Source of the DNA: a virus
Reading direction: 5' to 3' (one strand)
DNA: 64,000 bases
IMG/VR virus record: IMGVR_UViG_3300045988_058019
Coordinates: 32,001-96,000 of that record
Shown: positions 49,905-64,000 of the stretch, in pieces
Layout of the letters: every line of letters begins with the position of its first letter
How positions within the stretch are numbered: position 1 is the first letter of the stretch
Notes under the pieces: model-generated
Database searches by the model: none
Told to the model about the DNA's origin: nothing
The model's input: the letters and a program-made list of their open reading frames with translations, nothing else
Program-made: the position numbers and the translations under genes

Positions 49905-49930
49905 ATCTGCAAGTTTTATATGAATATTGG

Positions 49931-50005
49931 TTGGGGCGGCAGGGCTCGAACCCGCACATCACAGAGGTTTAGAATCTCCGGTACTACCAATTATACCACG
50001 CCCCA
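49931..50005 (-). tRNA. Amber-suppressor tRNA, anticodon CUA, Gln-like acceptor stem
   Basis: Cloverleaf drawn by hand. Acceptor stem TGGGGCG/CGCCCCA (U1-A72, G2-C71, G3-C70). D-stem GTAT/GTAC. Anticodon loop TTCTAAA (CTA at 49970-49972). T-arm GCGGG-TTCGAGC-CCTGC. There is an A31-C39 mismatch and a 7-nt variable loop. Confidence 0.8.
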
Positions 50006-55685: not shown

Positions 55686-56472
55686 ATAATAACTCTTTTA
55701 GTTTTAACGATAACCGTTGAGCGTCTGGATGCGCGTTTTTGCTTGTCCGTAATGACAAGAAATGTTCCCAATCGCTCTTAAATCCTGTCATTACTAATGG
55801 TGAACATACAGCAAACGGAAGTACTTGTCTAGCTTGTTGTGGTTTCCAACCTTGTTCTATAAACTCTAAATATTGTTCTTCACAATTTTCTAAAAATATC
55901 TCAAAATCTTGTTTATGTGTTGTTCCAAGTTCATCCCACCAAGACGGTTTAATGAAGGTAATTTCATTATTAAATTTATCTTTACTATAGTTGCAGTAAC
56001 GGGTACTCTCTCTAGCGAAACTAAATACACGATGTCTTAGAAAGCTTTCTCCAGTTACTCTATCTAATGTCCATTTAACAGTAATACGTTTCTCGTGGGA
56101 AGGTGTAGGATCACATTGATATTTTAAATCATCAAGCCATTTATTTTCTACTAGTACTCGATAATTTGTAGTTATATAAGCCCTACCGTTAATACCATCT
56201 ACACTTATCTTTTTTACTCTAGAATAAGGATTTATTTCGTATTTTCTTACTTCTGGAGAAGTGGCTGTTATAGTTAAATATACAGTGCCGTGCTCTAACA
56301 TAGCCCCATGACCAAGCTTAATCATACGATCTACAAACTCTTTAGCGCTATTCTCTGTTATCTTATCAAGACTTTTATAACAATGGCGTCCAGCCCATTC
56401 TATTTGTTTATATACACCGTCTATTCCGGATTCTTGTTCTTTAACTATTACACTTGAATTAATTAATTTCAT
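55672..56472 (-). CDS. thyX: FAD-dependent thymidylate synthase ThyX, 266 aa
   Basis: ThyX signature RHRVFSFARESTRY (RHRxxS-x4-S-x-R). Intact ORF, TAA stop. Confidence 0.85.
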   Translation of the reverse strand: MKLINSSVIVKEQESGIDGVYKQIEWAGRHCYKSLDKITENSAKEFVDRMIKLGHGAMLEHGTVYLTITATSPEVRKYEINPYSRVKKISVDGINGRAYITTNYRVLVENKWLDDLKYQCDPTPSHEKRITVKWTLDRVTGESFLRHRVFSFARESTRYCNYSKDKFNNEITFIKPSWWDELGTTHKQDFEIFLENCEEQYLEFIEQGWKPQQARQVLPFAVCSPLVMTGFKSDWEHFLSLRTSKNAHPDAQRLSLKLKELLYDEK

Positions 56473-57094
56473 TGTTTAATATTTTAGATTTATACTTACC
56501 GAAGAATTCTAATTCACCATTTAATCTAGCCTTAATTGCATCTTCTAAAGAAGAAAAACTGCCTAAATATATTTTTTCTTTATTACATTGTATTTCAGCA
56601 TACCATTTATTTCGATCTTCTCGAAAACGTACTCCCAGTATTCCTGATGTATTGTTTTTAGGTAATTTTACTCTATTTTTTAAATTATCGGCATTATTGC
56701 ATATTCTCAAATTTCTTTTTCTATTGTCTAATTTATCTCCATTTATGTGATCTATAAGTAAATTGGTTTCGCCAAGAAGGATTCTGTGCAAATATTTCTG
56801 TTTAGAGTTTTTCACATATCCATTTTTATCTCTACACCATTTATCATTGATTACTTTTGAGATATCTTCTTTATCTATTAAAGTTTCTGCAATTATATCA
56901 CCGTCTTTATTGTAAAGATATATTATAGCATGATTTGAGAATTCTTCTATTTCGTTAGGATCGTATTTAGTCCTTAATTTTATTTTACCATATCTAATAT
57001 ATTGTAGGTAATGTTTTCCACATAGTATTCCAATGTTTGTATTAACCGTTTTATTACTATTTCCACAAATACAACATATTTTTGTTTGTTTCAT
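56459..57094 (-). CDS. HNH endonuclease with AP2-type DNA-binding domain, 211 aa
   Basis: LIDHINGDKLDNRKRNLRICNNADN (HNH) and GVRFREDRNKWYAEI...YLGSFSSLEDA (AP2). Overlaps the thyX start by 14 nt. Confidence 0.8.
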   Translation of the reverse strand: MKQTKICCICGNSNKTVNTNIGILCGKHYLQYIRYGKIKLRTKYDPNEIEEFSNHAIIYLYNKDGDIIAETLIDKEDISKVINDKWCRDKNGYVKNSKQKYLHRILLGETNLLIDHINGDKLDNRKRNLRICNNADNLKNRVKLPKNNTSGILGVRFREDRNKWYAEIQCNKEKIYLGSFSSLEDAIKARLNGELEFFGKYKSKILNNEIN

Positions 57095-57314
57095 AATTAG
57101 TTATAATTTTTATTAATTATTGTTAATAACGCAATTTCTATGGAAGAGTTTACAAAAGTGTAGATAATTTAACATAAATTAAAAAATATTTTATAAAAAA
57201 ATTTTTGAGATTAAAAAATATAGAATACTCCTACGTGTGCGTGAAGTACTACTCCAATTCATCCCCGGCTGTTATTAATCGCGGGAATACCCCCGCCAAT
57301 AAAATCAAAGCATT

Positions 57315-57413
57315 ATGAGTTTATCAGATTGTATTTTTATTCCCACAGATGAAGATGAGGAATATGTTGATGCATTAGCTGATGCATTGGAGTATTATGG
57401 AGGCTATGAGTAA
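57315..57413 (+). CDS. Tiny acidic ORF, 32 aa
   Basis: ATG to TAA. First plus-strand ORF after the divergent AT-rich region. Confidence 0.3.
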   Translation: MSLSDCIFIPTDEDEEYVDALADALEYYGGYE

Positions 57414-57476
57414 TCATAGCTCTCCTACTCAATTCATTCACAACTGTAATACCATGCACATTAAATATATCAAGAT

Positions 57477-57620
57477 ATGAAGTACAGAATTGATGCTTAC
57501 AAAAAAGGTGGTGCTGTTAAGCAAGGCACAAAGTTATTAGACAACATTGATGAGGCTATTAAGCTTGCATATGCTGTTGCTAATCATTACAAGTGTTATA
57601 CAAGAATAGCCAGGGTTTAA
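57477..57620 (+). CDS. Small ORF, 47 aa
   Basis: ATG to TAA, followed by a 9-bp hairpin ATAGCCAGG/CCTGGCTAT. Confidence 0.35.
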   Translation: MKYRIDAYKKGGAVKQGTKLLDNIDEAIKLAYAVANHYKCYTRIARV

Positions 57621-57701
57621 CCTGGCTATCTCTTAGTAAACAGTTACAATTCATACTCATCTTAATAGAATTGCATTATTAACCATTTAAATATTTAACT
57701 T

Positions 57702-57932
57702 ATGTTAACTAAAGTTAAAGAGGTGAGTAAAAGACTCATCACAGGTGGCTTACTTTGTATAGCCATCGGAGTTGTTCAGGGATTTGCTGTACAGATGTTA
57801 GGCTTATCCTCAGTATTCCCTAACCATATTCAGCTATTTGGTATGCTACTAATGGTAGGCATCACTAGCATATTAATAGGTGCTATTATGCTATTGTTTA
57901 TATGGCTAATAAACATGGTTAACAAACTCTAA
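57702..57932 (+). CDS. Small membrane protein, 76 aa (two hydrophobic helices)
   Basis: Intact track ORF with a TAA stop and a strong terminator just downstream. Confidence 0.6.
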   Translation: MLTKVKEVSKRLITGGLLCIAIGVVQGFAVQMLGLSSVFPNHIQLFGMLLMVGITSILIGAIMLLFIWLINMVNKL

Positions 57933-57951
57933 GCCACTCTAAATGGTTATA

Positions 57952-57983
57952 GCGGGGAGTCGTGCACTCCCTGCTTTTTCTTC
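57952..57983 (+). terminator. Rho-independent terminator
   Basis: 9-bp stem GCGGGGAGT/ACTCCCTGC, loop CGTGC, then TTTTTCTTC. Confidence 0.8.
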
Positions 57984-58014
57984 ACATCCAATTCACACAC
58001 AGCCAATTATACTG

Positions 58015-58090
58015 GGTGTACTATAGTACCGTAGTACGTGTTATTTAGTACTCAGTATCGGATATTCAGTATCTGGTATTGAGTACTTAC
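58015..58090. repeat. Cluster of GTAC-core short repeats (iteron/operator-like)
   Basis: GTAC at 58018, 58026, 58034, 58048 and 58083, plus direct repeat CAGTATC(G/T)G at 58053 and 58067. The element GAGTACTATAGTA recurs at 59322-59334. Confidence 0.4.
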
Positions 58091-58309
58091 ACCGGCTGCG
58101 CACGAACCCCATTCAGCTGCGTCTGCCAAGAATCGGAGGAAAACAGAAAAGTTCTTCCCGCAATATCATGTGAGCGTTATATAATGATTACGTTTAGATG
58201 TGGTAGTGTATAAAAACCACTCCAGTTTGAGCATACTGTAAAAAGCTCATCATTACTTCACCAAGTAATATATAGCCTTTATAGATTATTCACCAAAAAA
58301 CATATTATC

Positions 58310-59026
58310 ATGGCAAAGTTTCAGTTATTAAACCCAGTATTAAGAGTAGTAGGTCAAAAGTATGATGAAAAAGGCATACCTGTTGGAGAAATCAACAAAA
58401 ATGTTCAAAATGCAGGTAACAAATACTTGTATTCCCAATTAATCAATCTTGACTGTCCTTGGGAAGGAACACAAACCTACACAAGTTTTCAAAAGCCAGT
58501 AGTAGCCATATTTGAGCCACTACTAAGCATGCAACATGGAGGCATTGGTCAAACAGACCAAGCCATACCTGAGATGTTCCAAACTATTGAAGGTTGCTAC
58601 GTGTCTTGGAAATCACCACAACCATTTTACAAGAAGCACTTGTCTGCACATCCAGCAAATCCAGCTAAAGGCACACCAGCTATTATGGCGGGAGACATTG
58701 TAAAACAAGGAGGAGTTCCAGTAATATACACAGAATTAGTTGTATTCTGTCAGTATTACTATGACAGTCGTGGAGAAAAGCAATGGATGAGAGGAAGCAC
58801 TCCTGAAGAAGTCGGAAGAGCAGCATTCAGTAATTATTGTATTCCAGCTAACGACACTCGCGCATTAGCAGCAGAACAACCTCAACAACAGGAAACAGTT
58901 GGAGGGCAAACTATCAACACAGTTAATCCTAACCAACAACCTCAACAGCAAGCTCAGCCTCAACAAGCTCAACCGCAGTTTGTACAAGGCCCAGCTCAAC
59001 AGCAAGGTGCCGCATTTGGCGCGTAA
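58310..59026 (+). CDS. Hypothetical protein, 238 aa, Gln/Pro-rich C-terminal tail
   Basis: Intact track ORF. All Gln are CAA/CAG. TAA stop. Confidence 0.7.
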   Translation: MAKFQLLNPVLRVVGQKYDEKGIPVGEINKNVQNAGNKYLYSQLINLDCPWEGTQTYTSFQKPVVAIFEPLLSMQHGGIGQTDQAIPEMFQTIEGCYVSWKSPQPFYKKHLSAHPANPAKGTPAIMAGDIVKQGGVPVIYTELVVFCQYYYDSRGEKQWMRGSTPEEVGRAAFSNYCIPANDTRALAAEQPQQQETVGGQTINTVNPNQQPQQQAQPQQAQPQFVQGPAQQQGAAFGA

Positions 59027-59035
59027 CCACTAATT

Positions 59036-59088
59036 AGAACAAGAGAATAGCATAGCAAAAATAATGCGCTTGTTCTATATTTTTTATT
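59036..59088 (+). terminator. Terminator candidate after 58310..59026
   Basis: Stem AGAACAAG/CTTGTTCT, then ATATTTTTTATT. Confidence 0.55.
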
Positions 59089-59089
59089 A

Positions 59090-59537
59090 AAATAGACTCA
59101 CAAAGAAAATGTATTTGTGAGTAAATAATGGTGAAACCACATTGCTTTAAATAGTAATGTGAGGACCATTCCGCCCTATTTGCAATTATGAACTGCATAG
59201 TGACAGAGACCTAAGAAAGGGAAGCAAATGAGCGTTGATATCGTGGCGAAAGCTGCGTTCCACCATTGTACGTAGGGGTGTGTGGGTAATCGGCTAAAGG
59301 AACGTTCTATTATAGTATGTTGCGAGTACTATAGTAAATAGAGTAAGCATGGCGACTCGGAAAGACGAGCTTTACTTGCTGGTAGGGTAGTTTAAACCAG
59401 TAGTGCATATCTTTTCGGCGGTTTACTAGTAACGCACTTAAAAGTTTAAGGATAAACTGTACAGGAAACCAATTCCGATTTATAAGTTTGGTGACAACTT
59501 GAAAGAGAGTGACAGCCTGGAAAGACAGGCATTTTTT
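59090..59537 (+). ncRNA. Candidate large structured non-coding RNA (class unknown)
   Basis: About 450 nt with no credible ORF. Many helices are visible: CTCACAAA/TTTGTGAG, AATGGTG/CACCATT long-range, and GNRA-capped GTGGC-GAAA-GCTGC. Ends in hairpin GCCTG-GAAAGA-CAGGC plus a T-run at 59515-59537. Confidence 0.4.
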
Positions 59538-59610
59538 AGTCATCTATAGTATTAAAAAGGCTATAGTATAGTAGTAATACCTACTCAAAGAGCACGGCGG
59601 TGGGCTCATA

Positions 59611-59644
59611 GTCAGGTGATAAGCCTATTCCTGACATTTTTATT
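59611..59644 (+). terminator. Second terminator in the same intergenic region
   Basis: GTCAGG...CCTGAC followed by ATTTTTATT. It overlaps the GTG start proposed by the ORF track. Confidence 0.6.
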
Positions 59645-59663
59645 AATTCAAAAACAAAAAGTA

Positions 59664-59924
59664 ATGAAATATTACGCATTTATGCCATTTTGGCATTGGT
59701 CTGAAGTTATGGATGAAAGACCAACTGATGGAGATTACATTCTTGGTAATATTGTAAGAACTACTGATGCATTACTAGCTCTTACTTTGTATTCAGAAAC
59801 TCCATGTCCTGCATCTCAACTAATAGAGGCTAATAGCGAAGAAGAACTTGAAGCTAAAATAGAAGAGATGAAACAAAACTATAAGAATCCAGAATGGGTT
59901 TCTAAACTTGAAGAATTTCTATAA
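59664..59924 (+). CDS. Hypothetical protein, 86 aa
   Basis: ATG 59664 is preferred over the track GTG at 59616, which lies inside the terminator hairpin. TAA stop. Confidence 0.55.
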   Translation: MKYYAFMPFWHWSEVMDERPTDGDYILGNIVRTTDALLALTLYSETPCPASQLIEANSEEELEAKIEEMKQNYKNPEWVSKLEEFL

Positions 59925-59935
59925 ATTCTTATTTA

Positions 59936-60020
59936 GCCCGAATGGTGAAATAGGTATACACGAAAGACTTAAAATCTTTTGACCATTATGGTCGTGCGAG
60001 TTCAAGTCTCGCTTCGGGTA
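59936..60020 (+). tRNA. tRNA-Leu, anticodon UAA, long variable arm
   Basis: Acceptor GCCCGAA/TTCGGGT. Anticodon stem-loop AAAGA-CTTAAAA-TCTTT. Variable arm TGACCATTATGGTCG. T-arm GCGAG-TTCAAGT-CTCGC. Confidence 0.85.
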
Positions 60021-60299
60021 CAAAAGGATAGCTATCGTTTACTTCTCACAGACAGTTCTCAATAAAAAACTCAATAACTTCGGAGTAGCGTAAGCTACGG
60101 AGTTGTGTAACAATCCCAAGACATTGAGGGCACCAGTTTCTTATAATAGTATAGTTGGCAGACGTAAGGGCGTACTCAGCTGCCAGATGAAGCAGTGAAT
60201 TCTGTGGACTGATAGAGAACGTGTGATATTCAGGCTATGCGTTGCGCAGTTATAAGTTTTAGGTGTAAAATGCAATTTAATCATTAACTAAATAATCAT
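60021..60299 (+). ncRNA. ORF-free structured segment downstream of tRNA-Leu (candidate ncRNA or long leader)
   Basis: GNRA hairpin GTAGC-GTAA-GCTAC and hairpin TGGCAG...CTGCCA. No ORF. Confidence 0.25.
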
Positions 60300-60383
60300 A
60301 TGGATAGAGACACAGAATTAGGTATGTTATCAGTAATAATCACAATGATAGTATTATATCTATCTATATGGTTATTTAACTAA
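60300..60383 (+). CDS. Tiny hydrophobic ORF, 27 aa
   Basis: ATG to TAA, encoding MDRDTELGMLSVIITMIVLYLSIWLFN. Confidence 0.25.
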   Translation: MDRDTELGMLSVIITMIVLYLSIWLFN

Positions 60384-60395
60384 AAATGAACAGAA

Positions 60396-60620
60396 ATGAA
60401 TACTCTAATTAGTAAATTATTAGGAACTGCAGTAGGAGTAAAAATAGGGAATAATACTATTATAGGCTTATTAGTAGGTGTAGCATGGGATGAAAATTTA
60501 CAAATATCAGAGTTATCATTATCTCCTTCAGAGAATAATGTAAATACTTATCTCATTGACACATATATTATGCCTTATTTTGACGAACACCTAAATATAG
60601 TAGTATATACCGCATTATAA
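60396..60620 (+). CDS. Hypothetical protein, 74 aa
   Basis: Intact track ORF, TAA stop. Confidence 0.55.
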   Translation: MNTLISKLLGTAVGVKIGNNTIIGLLVGVAWDENLQISELSLSPSENNVNTYLIDTYIMPYFDEHLNIVVYTAL

Positions 60621-61245
60621 TATTAATACAGATTTATTTCGCAAAGTAATTATTCTATGAAATGCAAATTATCCTCATATGTTGTGAAACATAATTTAAC
60701 CACGTTAAAGTATAATAATATAAGTTAGGTATGTCCTTATAAAGACTTAGGTAGCGCTAAGGACTATATTATTATACTTCTCTTCTTAAACCACCGATGA
60801 TACGTGACAAGTCGTATATGGAATGAGTGTGAGTCAAGAAGTAAACTATTCCGCCTTTATATGCACATTAAAGGTTAAAGATTGAATAGTAATCCACGTG
60901 GTAGATGCAGTTGTAGGTTCCAACTGGTGCACATCTTTTAGAGACAGCAACCAAGCTCGAAGTAAGCAGAGCGAAGATTAGCTATACCTCGATAGGCTTA
61001 ATGAGGTGCTTAACAGTCTGACACTAACTGAACAATAAGTGTCTTTTAAGTTCACCCTCAAGAAGGGAAAATGTTGAACTCTACAGATATGTAGACAGCT
61101 CCATTAACTCTAGCTGTAATAAAGAGTTATTAATAGAGTAAGAGAATAGAAACGTGTATATCTACGTAGTTCTTAGCATAGCTTATAGTCGCACATCGTA
61201 ACTGATGACTATATTAATGCGCTTACTCTATTATTTTTATTGCAT
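60621..61245 (+). ncRNA. Candidate large structured non-coding RNA (class unknown)
   Basis: About 620 nt without an ORF. Shares collinear motifs with 59090-59537: ATTCCGCC(C/T)T..TGCA at 59168 and 60848, and GTGCA(T/C)ATCTTTT at 59403 and 60927. Closed by the 11-bp stem 61132-61142/61222-61232 followed by ATTTTTATT. Confidence 0.4.
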
Positions 61246-61272
61246 TAACTAACAAATAAATAATATCAAATT

Positions 61273-61719
61273 ATGGAGAAAATAACTTGTATTCAGCAGT
61301 ATGTAATAGATAATCTTATTGAAGATGAGATATTATCTACAAACAGTCTATTAGATGCAGTTTCTGAAGTATGTTCAGAAGAACAATTTAATAACATACT
61401 ATCTATTCTTATTGAAACACCTATTCCTTGTACAGACATACCTAAATTGGAGCATAAAGAAGACTCAGGAAATAAAACAAACTTAGTAAGAATGAGTATG
61501 TTTATACCTGAAGAAACTAACACTTTAGCTAAACTAGGCATAATAAAAATACTAAAAAAACAATTCAACTTTAGTCTTAACCAAACTAAAGAATATGTAG
61601 ATAGTTGCATAGGAAAGTATAGTATACTACCCAATGCTATTCTACAAACAGAAGTAGATGAAGTTACTAAAAAATTAGAACCTTACAATGTAATTGTATC
61701 TACAGCAGTGTTTTATTAA
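61273..61719 (+). CDS. Divergent ribosomal protein bL12 (L7/L12)-like protein, 148 aa
   Basis: The C-terminal KLGIIKILKKQFNFSLNQTKEYVDS...EVDEVTKKLEPYNVIV parallels the bL12 CTD ([25 protein letters not shown]...AEALKKALEEAGAEV). The N-terminal LLDAVSEVCSEEQF parallels VVELISAMEEKF. Confidence 0.5.
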   Translation: MEKITCIQQYVIDNLIEDEILSTNSLLDAVSEVCSEEQFNNILSILIETPIPCTDIPKLEHKEDSGNKTNLVRMSMFIPEETNTLAKLGIIKILKKQFNFSLNQTKEYVDSCIGKYSILPNAILQTEVDEVTKKLEPYNVIVSTAVFY

Positions 61720-62436
61720 TAAGTTAATGCAGTAAATATTACTGCATCTATACTGTGAGAATCAGTGTCAACTTTGTGGGGCTTATATTCAGTTATTCTT
61801 TATGTAAAATAGGAGTCATGACCTAATAATATCATAATATAAACTGATATTAGTGCAGAGAAATCAAAGACAATATACATTTTAGTGCGATTGATGTATA
61901 CGAGTAAAGGTCATGACAAGGTTCATGATTTAAGGGTGTCTTAAACGACAGGTTGAGAGCAACAACGTAAAAGCACAATTGCTAAGTCAGAGGAACCCAT
62001 CTCTGGCGCTCTTTAAGGTGAGAATCCTTAACAATCCTGTGGGGCTTATATCTCGTGTTTATAGTAGTGGTGTCACGAGTATTAGTGCAGACGTTAAAAT
62101 CAGGAACAACTATATTAGACGGCAATATTACCTTCTTCCGGTCGCAAATGTCATATAGTTTAATATAGCCAAGTTTGTTTCGTCCTTAGATTTACAGTAT
62201 TTGCCATTTGTTTATTTAATCATTGTTCGTTCTTAATTATACAGATTGATTAATTAAGCATAACAGTAAGCGTACTGTTGTCAGTATATTTATATGTGAA
62301 TATAGATATACTGATTGCACTCAAAAGCTGGCCTTCACGTGGCGAGTGTGTTAAGTAATAGGTCTAAAAAATCTTCCAGTTTTACCTATGAAAACTAACA
62401 GCTACCTTTTTATTAACTTTAATAACTATCAAAAAT
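61720..62436 (+). ncRNA. ORF-free segment containing two copies of a boxA-hairpin-boxB element (candidate ncRNAs or regulatory elements)
   Basis: TGTGGGGCTTATAT at 61775 and 62038, and TATTAGTGCAGA at 61848 and 62080. The intervening stem differs in sequence but stays paired in both copies. Confidence 0.4.
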
Positions 62437-62622
62437 ATGTATAAAAAACTATCAAATTTAAATGTTGGAGATATATTCCAATATGGAGACACTATATATG
62501 AAATAGTAGAAAAAGGAGTATGGCATGCAAAATGCAAGTATATTAATGAAACTCCTAAATCGGAATATTCACCTAAATATTTATTTATAAATTTTAGTCT
62601 TTATACTCGAGTTAAAGTTTAA
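62437..62622 (+). CDS. Hypothetical protein, 61 aa
   Basis: Intact track ORF, TAA stop. Confidence 0.5.
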   Translation: MYKKLSNLNVGDIFQYGDTIYEIVEKGVWHAKCKYINETPKSEYSPKYLFINFSLYTRVKV

Positions 62623-62633
62623 TAATTTTAAAT

Positions 62634-62716
62634 GCCCAGATGGCGAAATAGGTAGACGCTAAGGTCTTAAACACCTTTGACCATTGGTCGTGCGGGTTCG
62701 ACTCCCGCTCTGGGTA
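62634..62716 (+). tRNA. tRNA-Leu, anticodon UAA (second, diverged copy)
   Basis: Acceptor GCCCAGA/TCTGGGT. Anticodon stem-loop AAGGT-CTTAAAC-ACCTT. Long variable arm. T-arm GCGGG-TTCGACT-CCCGC. Confidence 0.85.
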
Positions 62717-62745
62717 CAATTAGTAATTAACATTAAAATCTATTT

Positions 62746-63051
62746 ATGATAAAAGTAATTAAATATTATGAACTAAATCGAATTAGTAGAATATTAGTAA
62801 TAGCAATAATAACATATATTATTGGCATTCTAATTAAAAGAGAATATGAAGAGTCCAAAACTGTATATAATTTTGTAGATTTACAAATGAAGTACAAGAA
62901 TTATATATTAGTTAATAAAGAGAGAAGTATTACTAATGATGAAGAATATAAGTTCACATTACGTAATCCTATTACAAATCAAAATAGTACTGTATACGTA
63001 AAATACTATCTATATCATCATGTATATTTCGTTGGAGATACTATAAAATAA
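62746..63051 (+). CDS. Small membrane protein, 101 aa
   Basis: Intact track ORF with N-terminal hydrophobic helix ILVIAIITYIIGILI. Confidence 0.6.
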   Translation: MIKVIKYYELNRISRILVIAIITYIIGILIKREYEESKTVYNFVDLQMKYKNYILVNKERSITNDEEYKFTLRNPITNQNSTVYVKYYLYHHVYFVGDTIK

Positions 63052-63070
63052 CATTTTAATCAATAAAAGT

Positions 63071-63439
63071 ATGAAAAGAGAAGAAATTAAATCTTACAAA
63101 GATGCTTGCAAAGTAATAGGTAGGAAACCTAGAACTTATAAAGATAAGCATTTGAATCTGTATGAACAGCTTAGTACAATTATAGCTGCTCTAAATTTCA
63201 TTAGTAATGGTAATAAACCTTGGACACCTAAGTTCGATTATTATTACATCTATTCTTGGTTGTATAGAGAAGATGAATATAATAAAACTGCGGGTTTGTT
63301 CCATTTGAATTCTTACCGTGGGTTGGGCTCTTCCTCTGCTGGTGTCGGGGCTTCTCTGAAGATAAAAGAAAGAGAAGATGGAAATTACATAATGGAAAAC
63401 TTTGAAGAACTACTCCAAGATTGGTTTTGGGGAGATTAA
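63071..63439 (+). CDS. Hypothetical protein, 122 aa
   Basis: Intact track ORF, TAA stop. Confidence 0.6.
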   Translation: MKREEIKSYKDACKVIGRKPRTYKDKHLNLYEQLSTIIAALNFISNGNKPWTPKFDYYYIYSWLYREDEYNKTAGLFHLNSYRGLGSSSAGVGASLKIKEREDGNYIMENFEELLQDWFWGD

Positions 63440-63464
63440 TTACTAATTTTAAAACATTATCAAA

Positions 63465-63929
63465 ATGGAAAATGATTTAATGGCGAGACCTGAACCGCCA
63501 AGAAGAACTGTTTGGGTAGTAGTAGCAATCCTTGCCTTAATAGGCATGATTGGAGCAATATTTTACGCAGAGCGTAAAAACATTGCTAATTTCTTAAATG
63601 GTGTAAACCAAGAAGAAGTACAAGAAGATGCGCATATTACTATTGAAGAGCCTGTAGCAACAATACAGGATATTCTCGATATGCGTGAGCAAATGAGAGA
63701 AGATAGAAGGATTGATAGTGTATTTTTAGCTATGCCAAAGGTAGTATTAATTGATATTTTGATGCAGCATGGTACATCATTGTCTATAAAAGACATGATT
63801 TACATATATGAATCAAACACATCAACGTATAACACAGTACTATCTGGAGCAAGAGCTCAAAAATATCTTGATGACTCTATACAAACTCATGTTATATCAA
63901 CGGTTGTAAATGACTCTATTCAAAATTAA
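63465..63929 (+). CDS. Hypothetical membrane-anchored protein, 154 aa
   Basis: Intact track ORF with N-terminal helix VWVVVAILALIGMIGAIFY. Confidence 0.6.
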   Translation: MENDLMARPEPPRRTVWVVVAILALIGMIGAIFYAERKNIANFLNGVNQEEVQEDAHITIEEPVATIQDILDMREQMREDRRIDSVFLAMPKVVLIDILMQHGTSLSIKDMIYIYESNTSTYNTVLSGARAQKYLDDSIQTHVISTVVNDSIQN

Positions 63930-64000
63930 AACCAAACCTCCTGTTTTAAATGAATATTAGAGTCTAGTATACTCAGTCTGTGAAGATAGAGTATACTTTC

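What the first reader, a model, noticed from the sequence alone, without database searches (positions are those of the whole stretch)
59027..62436. Cluster of long ORF-free, helix-rich segments next to tRNA-Leu genes: candidate novel structured RNAs
Most of the genome is tightly packed, but this plus-strand block has four gaps of roughly 280-720 nt: 59027-59663, 60021-60299, 60621-61272 and 61720-62436. None has a credible ORF on either strand.

The gaps look richer in G/C than the coding DNA. They contain many hairpins with GNRA loops (GTGGC-GAAA-GCTGC, GTAGC-GTAA-GCTAC), long-range complementary arms (AATGGTG/CACCATT and the 11-bp pair 61132/61222), and terminator-like hairpins with T-runs at their ends.

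Two of the gaps share collinear motifs. ATTCCGCC occurs at 59168 and 60848. GTGCAYATCTTTT occurs at 59403 and 60927.

Large ornate RNAs of unknown function such as ROOL and GOLLD are typically found in phages next to tRNAs. These segments do not obviously match anything I can name.
Basis: partly seen in the sequence, partly recalled or inferred. Interest (0 to 1): 0.7.

Follow-up and report, generated by a model that had tools for sequence, protein, structure and literature searches.

The report
Ribozyme and structured-RNA island in crAss-like phage
The four "empty" gaps are a conserved array of RNA genes in a human-gut crAss-like phage: a quarter of it is already-catalogued RNAs (two hatchet self-cleaving ribozymes, RAGATH-6, RAGATH-7), and the rest includes at least three clearly structured RNAs that match no catalogued family.

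Summary
The gaps are real and non-coding, also when TAG or TGA is read as sense. Rfam places RAGATH-6 (60632-60782), RAGATH-7 (60845-61044) and two hatchet ribozymes (61746-61869, 62009-62105) in gaps 3 and 4. ROOL and GOLLD do not match.

The remaining sequence holds further conserved plus-strand modules with no Rfam hit at E<=10:
- A1 (59092-59373): 23 covarying pairs and a probable pseudoknot.
- B (60064-60274): a near-invariant frame, with two covarying helices, that clamps a swappable cassette of 26-117 nt.
- C (62262-62400): 9 covarying pairs.
- A2 (59374-59537): weaker support.
- D and T0: terminator-like.

In about 130 related Suoliviridae contigs the modules keep one order and one strand (T0, A1, A2, B, RAGATH-6, RAGATH-7, D, hatchet, C, tRNA-Leu). 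Small ORFs come and go between them.

Best reading: a co-transcribed RNA island cut by hatchet self-cleavage, predicted at 61749|61750 and 62012|62013. Transcription and cleavage are inferred, not shown.

Verdict: partly known, partly new RNA families of a known kind. Module B is the best lead.

The parts
59036..59086 (+). T0: terminator-like hairpin (AGAACAAG ... CTTGTTCT) followed by a T-run, directly after the 238-aa ORF. It looks like a minimal version of module D.
   Evidence: Read directly. Conserved in 15-20 related loci. Its 3' half is 85% identical to the 3' half of module D, while the stem arms differ in a complementary way (family D6). Terminator function is inferred.
59092..59373 (+). 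Module A1: structured RNA of about 280 nt with no Rfam family. A probable pseudoknot joins loop ACGU to a downstream ACGU. It ends in the hairpin CTCG-GAAAGA-CGAG plus TTT.
   Evidence: 19 distinct homologues from IMG/VR. 23 pairs show changes on both sides, 93.5% of cells are paired, 0 of 500 shuffles reach the observed values, and slid controls give 2-7 (earlier 7-sequence set). Pseudoknot: L217 has CAGU/ACUG where the other 18 have ACGU/ACGU. No Rfam hit at E<=10. Many G-U pairs fit the + strand only.
59374..59537 (+). Module A2: conserved RNA of about 165 nt. A 5' hairpin covaries, the middle is variable and closed by GUGC/GCAC, and the 3' 70 nt are invariant. It ends in GCCTG-GAAAGA-CAGGC plus TTTTTT.
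   Evidence: 88-94% identical in phages cr10_1 and cr55_1, where the flanks are unrelated. 19 homologues; 5 pairs have changes on both sides, mostly in the 5' hairpin. The rest is invariant, so structural support is partial. The terminal hairpin is picked up by the terminator scan.
59611..59644 (+). A3: hairpin GTCAGG...CCTGAC followed by ATTTTTATT, terminator-like.
   Evidence: Read directly. A similar hairpin (GCTGGGTGAGAATCTATTCCCGGC + TTTTT) sits immediately upstream of module B in several loci. No BLAST homologue covers the whole 59538-59663 stretch.
59936..60021 (+). tRNA-Leu (anticodon UAA), copy 1
   Evidence: ARAGORN; Rfam tRNA, 57.7 bits.
60064..60274 (+). Module B: a near-invariant frame holding a hypervariable cassette.
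- P2: CACC 60131-34 with GGUG 60263-66.
- U-rich internal loop: AGUUU opposite UUUUA.
- P3: CUU...AAG, closing the 117-nt cassette (60140-60257).
- 3' tail: UAAAAUGC.
   Evidence: Both IMG/VR scans stopped at their limit of 119 matching stretches, so there are more. 9 GenBank phage records match. The cassette is 26-117 nt long, in at least 15 unrelated sequence types. P3: 6 covarying pairs, 0/500 shuffles reach the covariation score. Pa: all 3 pairs covary, one with four pair types. P1: wobble changes only, so unproven. MFE folding gives the same P1/P2/P3. No Rfam hit. Absent from bacterial genomes apart from 6 contigs in gut-derived or otherwise dubious assemblies, probably phage.
60632..60782 (+). 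RAGATH-6 RNA (Rfam RF02686), a known family of unknown function
   Evidence: cmscan 173.5 bits against a gathering score of 170, E=8e-29, full-length match 1-152. Homologous DNA in 40-47 related loci.
60845..61044 (+). RAGATH-7 RNA (Rfam RF03159), a known family of unknown function
   Evidence: cmscan 190.3 bits against a gathering score of 111.8, E=1e-45, full-length match. Also found in 5 of the 12 GenBank-derived loci searched.
61132..61241 (+). It is an expanded relative of T0, probably a terminator or 3'-end structure.
   Evidence: 21 homologues. The inner hairpins are replaced or covary (4 pairs with changes on both sides). The closing stem never varies. 3' half homologous to T0.
61746..61869 (+). 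Hatchet self-cleaving ribozyme, copy 1 (Rfam RF02678). Predicted cleavage is between 61749 and 61750. It lacks 4 nt (ACGU) of loop L2.
   Evidence: 89.6 bits against a gathering score of 51, E=2e-18. The conserved CAA, UGGG, GCAG and AAA segments named in PMC6561176 are present in the alignment. Activity not tested.
61870..62008 (+). Conserved spacer between the two hatchets. It would lie in a 263-nt fragment (61750-62012) if both ribozymes cut.
   Evidence: 6 homologues at 87-99% identity. Hairpins are predicted but no pair changes on both sides, so structure is undecided.
62009..62105 (+). Hatchet self-cleaving ribozyme, copy 2 (Rfam RF02678). Predicted cleavage is between 62012 and 62013.
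   Evidence: 97.6 bits against a gathering score of 51, E=2e-20. All four conserved segments and the full L2 are present.
62106..62261 (+). Conserved linker between hatchet 2 and module C, with a covarying hairpin (ACTATATTA...TAATATAG) around a variable insert.
   Evidence: 8 homologues; 2 pairs with changes on both sides; long invariant stretches.
62262..62400 (+). Module C: structured RNA of about 130 nt made of four hairpins with conserved loops, plus a conserved 3' tail GAAAACUAA. No Rfam family. It sits downstream of a hatchet in nearly all loci that have it.
   Evidence: 33 distinct sequences; 99.8% of cells paired; 9 pairs with changes on both sides; 0/500 shuffles; slid controls 0-1. 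Found in 43 loci. Order hatchet, C, tRNA-Leu. No Rfam hit.
62634..62717 (+). tRNA-Leu (anticodon UAA), copy 2
   Evidence: ARAGORN; Rfam tRNA, 55.3 bits.

Best explanation
The block is the RNA-gene island of a Suoliviridae (Crassvirales) gut phage. It is a collinear plus-strand array of structured RNAs interleaved with small, dispensable ORFs and two tRNA-Leu genes.

Shown:
- Four elements belong to known Rfam families (RAGATH-6, RAGATH-7, hatchet twice).
- At least three further modules (A1, B, C) are conserved, non-coding and folded, with compensatory changes, and match no Rfam family. A2 and D/T0 are conserved with weaker structural support.
- The module order is the same in about 130 related contigs.

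Inferred:
- The island is transcribed rightwards as one or a few long precursors. No host-type promoter was found inside it.
- The hatchets cut themselves at the 5' edge of their P1 stems (61749|61750 and 62012|62013). That would detach the upstream ORF-148 message and release downstream RNAs carrying a 5'-OH.
- RNase P and 3' processing would free the tRNAs.
- The hairpin-plus-U-run elements (T0, D and the GGAAAGAC-loop hairpins that end A1 and A2) would set or protect 3' ends.

The released RAGATH, A1, B and C RNAs are then stable folded products acting in trans. Their targets are unknown.

Module B probably works through its invariant, pseudoknot-capable frame, either as a catalytic core or as a binding platform. 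Only a closing helix is required of the cassette.
For: - Rfam hits above gathering scores, all on the + strand.
- The same families fill the equivalent gaps of the GenBank-derived relatives: 14 hatchets, 6 RAGATH-7, 1 RAGATH-6 and 2 RAGATH-14 in 12 loci.
- Relatives are Suoliviridae from human faeces.
- Conserved order T0-(A1,A2)-B-RAGATH-6-RAGATH-7-D-hatchet(s)-C-tRNA-Leu on one strand.
- In cr114_1 a 1.47-kb unannotated stretch holds B, RAGATH-6-like DNA, RAGATH-7, hatchet and C with no annotated ORF between them.
- RNA modules occur in more loci than the ORFs next to them.
- Covariation beats shuffled and slid controls for C, A1, B-P3 and B-Pa.
- Frequent G-U pairs would be A-C mismatches on the other strand.
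- No ORFs under three genetic codes and no codon periodicity.
- Hatchet cleaves at the 5' end of P1, and its four conserved segments are present in both copies (PMC6561176; alignment).
- Module B also occurs among tRNA arrays, tmRNA, pistol, hammerhead, hatchet, RAGATH-14 and RAGATH-34 in other contigs.
- HDV-like theta ribozymes next to tRNAs in gut phages are a published precedent for ribozyme-based RNA processing (PMC10879173).
Against: - No transcript data were available, so co-transcription, cleavage in vivo and stability of the products are all inferred.
- No promoter was identified. Sigma-70-like and Bacteroides -7 motifs are not enriched.
- Several T-run hairpins inside the island could terminate transcription and split it into separate units.
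- Hatchet copy 1 lacks 4 nt of L2 and may be inactive.
- RAGATH-6 only just passes its gathering score.
- The locus set was gathered with module B, A1 or A2 patterns. Frequencies are therefore biased, and the sequences are related, which inflates shuffle-based significance.
- A2, the inter-hatchet spacer and B-P1 have little or no covariation.
- None of the RAGATH, A1, B or C RNAs has a known function.
Confidence: 0.75

Rival explanations
1. The modules are cis-acting parts of the neighbouring mRNAs rather than RNA products in their own right. They would be 3' terminators or stabilisers for the upstream ORF, and 5' leaders or translational regulators for the downstream small ORF.
For: - T0, D, A1, A2 and A3 end in hairpins followed by T-runs.
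- B, D and C are each followed within 25-45 nt by an A/T-rich leader and an ATG.
- The leaders after B and D resemble each other.
- T0 and D are homologous and sit right after ORFs.
Against: - The modules persist, in the same order, where the ORFs are missing.
- They are conserved in more loci than the ORFs.
- A 280-nt, 10-helix RNA with a pseudoknot (A1) or a 70-nt invariant frame (B) is far more than a terminator or leader needs.
- Neighbours of B differ between loci.
- This reading is compatible with the main one for T0 and D only.
Confidence: 0.2
2. Module B is a new self-cleaving (or otherwise catalytic) RNA class. It would cut at or near its sharp 5' edge, as hatchet and HDV-like ribozymes do, with the cassette as a dispensable peripheral stem.
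For: - About 70 nt of the frame are near-invariant across phage subfamilies while the flanks and the insert are unrelated.
- Conservation starts abruptly at an A-run.
- The frame has a covarying short helix Pa, a possible pseudoknot, and internal loops whose sequence does not change.
- Topology resembles hatchet: a 5' hairpin followed by a long helix with conserved internal loops and a variable distal stem (PMC6561176).
- It keeps company with hatchet, pistol, hammerhead and RAGATH RNAs.
Against:
- To my recollection, most ribozyme-associated candidate motifs tested by others did not cleave.
- Many cassettes are themselves large and covary within a type, which suggests they matter.
- Invariance equally fits a protein- or RNA-binding platform.
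- P1 is unproven.
Confidence: 0.15
3. The gaps are DNA-level elements (replication origin, packaging site, or recombination cassettes with conserved flanks), and the hairpins are incidental.
For: - The region lies close to a switch in gene orientation at about 57.1 kb and is ORF-poor.
- Module B's conserved flanks around exchangeable inserts look formally like a cassette-exchange site.
Against: - Four elements score as specific RNA families.
- Helices keep pairing through G-U intermediates that work on one strand only.
- Compensatory changes maintain RNA helices, not DNA motifs.
- No repeated iteron-like arrays were found.
Confidence: 0.04
4. The gaps hide protein-coding genes missed because of stop-codon recoding or very small size.
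For: - The window carries a tRNA with anticodon CUA.
- Suoliviridae are reported to recode TAG (PMC10136315).
- A conserved 27-aa hydrophobic ORF does sit just outside gap 2, at 60301-60384.
Against: - With TAG or TGA as sense, no frame longer than about 110 codons appears. Those that do appear cross Rfam RNAs or need several read-throughs.
- Variable columns are spread evenly over the three codon phases.
- Changes are compensatory in stems.
Confidence: 0.03

Closest known systems
Hatchet self-cleaving ribozyme (Rfam RF02678; structure in PMC6561176)
   Same: Two copies in gap 4 pass the family model, with P1-P4 and the conserved CAA, UGGG, GCAG and AAA segments. Hatchet is already noted as largely confined to Crassvirales genomes.
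   Different: Copy 1 lacks the ACGU stretch of loop L2. The tandem pair 263 nt apart, followed by module C and a tRNA, is a context I did not find described in the held literature.
RAGATH RNA motifs (RNAs associated with genes associated with twister and hammerhead ribozymes; RAGATH-6 RF02686, RAGATH-7 RF03159, also RAGATH-14 and RAGATH-34 in relatives)
   Same: RAGATH-6 and RAGATH-7 are present as full-length members. Modules A1, B and C share the defining circumstance: conserved structured RNAs of unknown function beside self-cleaving ribozymes in phage DNA.
   Different: A1, B, C, A2 and D match none of the RAGATH models in Rfam 15 (E<=10 search). Module B's invariant frame plus exchangeable cassette is not a feature I know from any described RAGATH motif (own knowledge).
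Theta (HDV-like) ribozymes next to tRNAs in gut phages (PMC10879173)
   Same: Small self-cleaving ribozymes that lie wholly downstream of their cleavage site, sit in tRNA-bearing regions of recoded gut Caudoviricetes, and are proposed to process RNA precursors.
   Different: A different ribozyme class. Here the hatchets are about 500-870 nt upstream of the tRNA-Leu rather than abutting a tRNA 3' end. No HDV-like hit in the window.
ROOL and GOLLD large ornate RNAs
   Same: Phage-associated, near tRNA genes, large non-coding stretches rich in helices.
   Different: No match to either Rfam model. This locus is a string of separable 100-300-nt modules that occur independently of one another, not one 500-800-nt RNA.
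Stable small RNAs encoded within the phage T4 tRNA gene cluster (own knowledge, not checked here)
   Same: Non-tRNA structured RNAs co-located, and presumably co-processed, with phage tRNA genes.
   Different: No sequence relationship was tested. T4 has no ribozymes in that cluster.

Membership tests
Hatchet ribozyme (RF02678) | Covariance-model score at or above the curated gathering score (51 bits) | tested here: met
   97.6 bits (62009-62105) and 89.6 bits (61746-61869), both full-length.
Hatchet ribozyme (RF02678) | Highly conserved segments CAA (P1-P2 linker), UGGG, GCAG and AAA clustered round the cleavage site (PMC6561176) | tested here: met
   All four are present in both copies in the cmscan alignment and were checked against the paper.
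Hatchet ribozyme (RF02678) | Complete loop L2 3' strand (GCAGACGUUAAAAUCA) | tested here: inconclusive
   Copy 2 is complete. Copy 1 reads GCAGAG----AAAUCA, a 4-nt deletion. Loci L007 and L011 carry hatchets homologous to copy 1, but I did not check whether they share the deletion. The effect on activity is unknown.
Hatchet ribozyme (RF02678) | Self-cleavage at the 5' end of P1 | not testable with these tools
   Sites predicted at 61749|61750 and 62012|62013 from model positions 4|5. This needs in vitro transcription or end-mapping.
RAGATH-7 (RF03159) | Covariance-model score at or above the gathering score (111.8 bits) | tested here: met
   190.3 bits, model 1-208, E=1e-45.
RAGATH-6 (RF02686) | Covariance-model score at or above the gathering score (170 bits) | tested here: met
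   173.5 bits, model 1-152, E=8e-29. The margin is narrow but the match to the consensus is near-perfect.
ROOL / GOLLD large RNAs | Match to the Rfam covariance model | tested here: not met
   No hit in the window at gathering scores, nor in 57000-64000 at E<=10.
Any Rfam 15 family, for modules A1, A2, B, C and D | Any covariance-model match at E<=10 | tested here: not met
   The sensitive cmscan of 57000-64000 lists nothing that fits these modules. The only overlap is a minus-strand snoRNA-model match (E=1.1, 22.6 bits against a cut-off of 100) that touches the first bases of D.
Conserved structured RNA (generic), for modules A1, B and C | Base pairs kept through compensatory changes beyond shuffled and slid controls | tested here: met
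   A1: 23 pairs. C: 9 pairs. B: 6 pairs in P3 and 3 of 3 in Pa. On most measures 0 of 500 shuffles reach the observed value; for B the count of pairs changed on both sides is not discriminating (167/500, 4/500). The sequences are related, so these are not probabilities.
Self-cleaving ribozyme (generic), for module B | Site-specific self-scission | not testable with these tools
   Only circumstantial: invariant core, possible pseudoknot, sharp 5' edge, ribozyme neighbours.
Intrinsic terminator, for T0, D and the hairpins ending A1 and A2 | Stable hairpin immediately followed by a U-run on the transcribed strand | tested here: met
   59515-59530 plus TTTTTT is found by the scan. T0, D and A3 were read directly. 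Whether they terminate transcription was not tested.
tRNA | Cloverleaf detected by ARAGORN and by the Rfam tRNA model | tested here: met
   tRNA-Leu(UAA) at 59936-60021 and 62634-62717.

The most novel reading that the evidence does not exclude
Module B (60064-60274) is a new class of functional RNA whose roughly 70-nt invariant, pseudoknot-capable frame is the active part. The most exciting version is a new self-cleaving ribozyme that cuts at its 5' edge, as hatchet does. An alternative is a docking platform that displays interchangeable RNA cassettes. A third, more speculative idea is that its U-rich internal loop (AGUUU opposite UUUUA) clamps the conserved A-run in a triple helix that protects the RNA. 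In addition, the two hatchets could excise a 263-nt RNA (61750-62012) with 5'-OH and 2',3'-cyclic-phosphate ends. That is the substrate an RtcB-type ligase could circularise.
Probability: 0.15. Interest if true: 0.85.

Novelty: new member of a known kind. Interest (0 to 1): 0.6.

Why it matters
crAss-like phages are among the most abundant viruses in the human gut, and almost nothing is known about their non-coding RNA.

This locus shows that the orphan RAGATH-6, RAGATH-7 and hatchet RNAs are not scattered curiosities. They are fixed stations in one conserved, ordered RNA array that ends in a tRNA. That gives their unknown functions a concrete, testable context: precursor processing and release of stable RNAs during infection.

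The locus also yields three well-supported new RNA families (A1, B, C). One of them has an unusual design, an invariant frame around exchangeable inserts. That makes it a reasonable candidate for a new ribozyme or RNA scaffold.

Each candidate is short enough for direct in vitro cleavage assays.

Tried and rejected
- ROOL/GOLLD or any other Rfam family for gaps 1 and 2: no hit at E<=10.
- Hidden ORFs under TAG or TGA recoding, and codon periodicity: none.
- Functions for the flanking ORFs: Pfam and PHROGs name nothing inside the island. The only named gene nearby is an HNH endonuclease at 56459-57094 on the minus strand.
- Host-type promoters: neither sigma-70-like sites nor the Bacteroides -7 motif TAnnTTTG is enriched.
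- AAACTCAATAAC as a repeated phage promoter: one exact copy in 64 kb, and near-matches are at the chance level.
- Module B in bacterial genomes, as a host homologue or a CRISPR target: 63 hits, about the number I estimate for a 17-mer in 596 Gb. Only 6 are real frames, in gut-derived or otherwise dubious assemblies that are probably phage contigs.
- My first model of B, with P1 as a plain 6-bp hairpin and G-U as the first P2 pair, was revised once the unbiased sample showed that CCC/GGG covaries.
- My first column numbers for the A1 pseudoknot were off by one and were corrected by reading the alignment.
- The original RAGATH/hatchet discovery paper could not be read under the id I tried (PMC4509812, recalled from memory).
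- A fuzzy-regex search timed out and was replaced by blastn-short.
- The inter-hatchet spacer and A2 gave too little variation to decide on structure.

Full report
**Observation.** They are bounded by ORF 58310-59026, ORF 59664-59924, tRNA-Leu 59936-60021, a 27-aa ORF at 60301-60384, ORF 60396-60620, ORF 61273-61719 and ORF 62437-62622. No credible ORF appears in them on either strand, even when TAG or TGA is read as sense. That check matters because the window carries a tRNA with anticodon CUA, and Suoliviridae are reported to recode TAG (PMC10136315). All quoted hairpins and motifs are at their stated coordinates.

Two sub-claims are weaker than stated. First, only gaps 1 and 2 are G+C-richer (0.37-0.38) than the window mean (0.333). 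Gaps 3 and 4 equal the mean and exceed only the adjacent small ORFs. Second, the motifs shared by gaps 1 and 3 are within chance.

**What is already known.** An Rfam scan at curated thresholds places four known families in gaps 3 and 4, all on the + strand and all full-length:
- RAGATH-6, 60632-60782, 173.5 bits against a gathering score of 170.
- RAGATH-7, 60845-61044, 190.3 bits against 111.8.
- Hatchet ribozymes, 61746-61869 (89.6 bits) and 62009-62105 (97.6 bits), against 51.

These cover about 570 of the 2285 gap bases.

Both hatchets carry the four conserved segments (CAA, UGGG, GCAG, AAA) that cluster round the cleavage site at the 5' end of P1 (PMC6561176). From the model alignment, cleavage is predicted at 61749|61750 and 62012|62013. 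Copy 1 lacks four L2 nucleotides, so its activity is uncertain. A 2026 preprint already notes that hatchet is largely confined to Crassvirales. I found no paper in the held library that links RAGATH motifs to crAss-like phages.

**Relatives.** The closest DNA is from uncultured crAss-like phages of the family Suoliviridae from human faeces (cr53_1, cr115_1, cr114_1, cr113_1, cr125_1, cr4_1, cr10_1, cr55_1, cr118_1). Similarity is patchy. Short non-coding blocks are 88-99% identical while the sequence around them is unrelated. The equivalent unannotated gaps in the 12 GenBank-derived loci contain 14 hatchets, 6 RAGATH-7, 1 RAGATH-6, 2 RAGATH-14 and tRNA-Leu genes, all on the same strand as the downstream genes.

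**New modules.** Using about 250 IMG/VR and GenBank loci gathered with DNA patterns, I defined further modules.

*A1 (59092-59373)* is an RNA of about 280 nt with about 10 helices.
- In 19 distinct sequences, 23 pairs change on both sides and 93.5% of cells are paired. No shuffle of 500 reaches this, and slid controls give 2-7.
- Its invariant 50-nt core contains a hairpin whose ACGU loop can pair with a downstream ACGU. The one divergent homologue has CAGU and ACUG, which fits a pseudoknot.

*C (62262-62400)* is four hairpins with conserved loops.
- In 33 distinct sequences, 99.8% of cells are paired and 9 pairs change on both sides. None of 500 shuffles reaches this, and slid controls give 0-1.

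The stem encloses three variable hairpins and is followed by a T-run. Its 3' half is homologous to T0 (59036-59086), the hairpin after ORF-238, with complementary differences in the stems. I therefore read D and T0 as one family of terminator-like elements.

*A2 (59374-59537)* is conserved in cr10_1 and cr55_1, but only its 5' hairpin covaries.

A1 and A2 each end in a short hairpin with the conserved loop GGAAAGAC and a covarying stem. The same hairpin closes other, unrelated modules in relatives.

Frequent G-U pairs in all these helices fit the + strand only. Substitutions show no codon periodicity.

**Module B (60064-60274).** This is the most unusual element. Its frame is almost invariant across phage subfamilies:

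5'-AAAAAACUCAAUAACUUCCCAAGACAUUGAGGGCACCAGUUUCUU-[cassette]-AAGUUUUAGGUGUAAAAUGC-3'

- The sequence upstream, the sequence downstream and the cassette are unrelated between loci. The cassette is 26-117 nt long and comes in at least 15 unrelated types.
- The cassette is always closed by a helix that continues CUU/AAG. Six of its pairs covary through AU, UA, CG and GC.
- A second scan, anchored on the 3' frame, gave an unbiased sample of 5' frames. It revealed a 3-bp helix, CCC (60116-18) with GGG (60128-30), in which all three pairs covary: UCC/GGA, CAC/GUG, UUC/GAA and UGU/ACA.
- The loop of that helix (AUUGA) is complementary to the upstream UCAAU. This possible pseudoknot shows only wobble changes and is unproven.
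- The window and about 40% of loci carry an extra hairpin inserted between UCAAU and CCC.
- B is absent from bacterial genomes. Of 63 matches to a 17-mer, about the number I estimate by chance, only 6 are real frames, and they lie in gut-derived or otherwise dubious assemblies that are probably phage contigs.
- B has one copy in the window.
- In other contigs, some 130-270 kb long, B sits among tRNA arrays, tmRNA, pistol, hammerhead, hatchet, RAGATH-14 and RAGATH-34.

**Organisation.** Across about 130 loci the order is constant and on one strand:

T0 - (A1, A2) - B - (orf27, orf74) - RAGATH-6 - RAGATH-7 - D - (orf148) - hatchet (- hatchet) - C - (orf61) - tRNA-Leu

Modules and ORFs are individually present or absent. 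In cr114_1 a 1.47-kb unannotated stretch holds B, RAGATH-6-like DNA, RAGATH-7, a hatchet and C with no annotated ORF between them. The RNA modules are found in more loci than the adjacent ORFs, though the locus set was selected on B. The ORFs have no recognisable function.

**Mechanism (inferred).** No host-type promoter is enriched inside the island. The simplest model is therefore rightward transcription into one or a few precursors.
- Hatchet self-cleavage would sever the ORF-148 message 30 nt after its stop codon and release downstream RNAs with 5'-OH ends.
- The tRNAs would be excised by host enzymes.
- The hairpin-plus-U-run elements would define or protect 3' ends.

Theta ribozymes beside tRNAs in gut phages are a published precedent for ribozyme-based processing (PMC10879173). 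What the released RAGATH, A1, B and C RNAs do is unknown. For B, I favour an active invariant frame, either catalytic or a binding platform, with the cassette needing only a closing helix. Nothing here tests that.

**Rivals.** I considered four alternatives: purely cis-acting UTR or terminator elements (plausible for T0 and D, poor for A1, B and C); B as a new self-cleaving ribozyme (about 15%); DNA-level elements; and hidden coding. The last two are contradicted by the strand-specific covariation and the ORF tests.

**Verdict.** However, a quarter of the gap sequence is already-filed RNA families, and the ROOL/GOLLD analogy fails. What is new is three well-supported RNA families (A1, B, C), two weaker ones, and the recognition that they form one ordered array with the known RAGATH and hatchet RNAs. 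I rate this as new members of a known kind and of moderate-to-good interest, with module B as a specific experimental lead.

Noticed in passing
window 49928-50005 (- strand): A tRNA with anticodon CUA. ARAGORN labels it 'Pyl'; Rfam tRNA gives 45.5 bits. It is most likely an amber-suppressor tRNA, which fits the TAG recoding reported for Suoliviridae.
   Followed up: partly
window 60301-60384 (+): A 27-aa hydrophobic mini-ORF (MDRDTELGMLSVIITMIVLYLSIWLFN) directly after module B. It is conserved at DNA level in about 25 related loci and may be a real small membrane peptide.
   Followed up: partly
window 56459-57094 (-): An HNH homing-endonuclease gene (PHROG 99, E=6e-34) at the edge of the leftward gene block, just before gene orientation switches at about 57.1 kb.
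   Followed up: partly
window 58875-58977 (+): The C-terminus of the 238-aa ORF is a Gln/Pro-rich low-complexity tail encoded by three imperfect 16-nt direct repeats (AACAACCTCAACAACA). This ORF has the highest G+C of the region (0.42).
   Followed up: no
window 59352-59373 and 59513-59537; many loci immediately upstream of module B: A short hairpin with conserved loop GGAAAGAC and covarying stem (CCUG/CAGG, UCUG/CAGA, CUCG/CGAG, CUAG/CUAG), usually followed by U's. It closes several otherwise unrelated modules and looks like a shared 3'-end signal.
   Followed up: partly
L013, L018, L020, L050, L064, L065 (IMG/VR contigs of 130-270 kb): Module B also occurs on contigs much longer than the roughly 100-kb Suoliviridae genomes. 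These contigs carry large tRNA arrays and a tmRNA gene (L050 4878-5454, L064 7403-7948). I did not resolve whether they are concatemers, mis-assemblies or larger related phages.
   Followed up: no
L025 10797-12308: Within 1.5 kb this locus carries RAGATH-14, a tRNA, a RAGATH-1 hammerhead, module B and a pistol ribozyme: two ribozyme classes and B in one short stretch.
   Followed up: no
L135 (Thauera sp. 2A1), L142, L143, L144, L167, L184 (genome contigs): Genuine module B frames sit on contigs filed under bacterial genomes or MAGs (Thauera, Bacilli, Clostridiales, Eubacterium, Bacteroides, Clostridium). These are probably mis-binned or contaminating crAss-like phage contigs.
   Followed up: partly
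window 57150-57225: A short non-coding stretch at the divergent gene junction is conserved in 7-14 related loci, more than its flanks. It could be the promoter or control region for the rightward unit that includes the RNA island.
   Followed up: no
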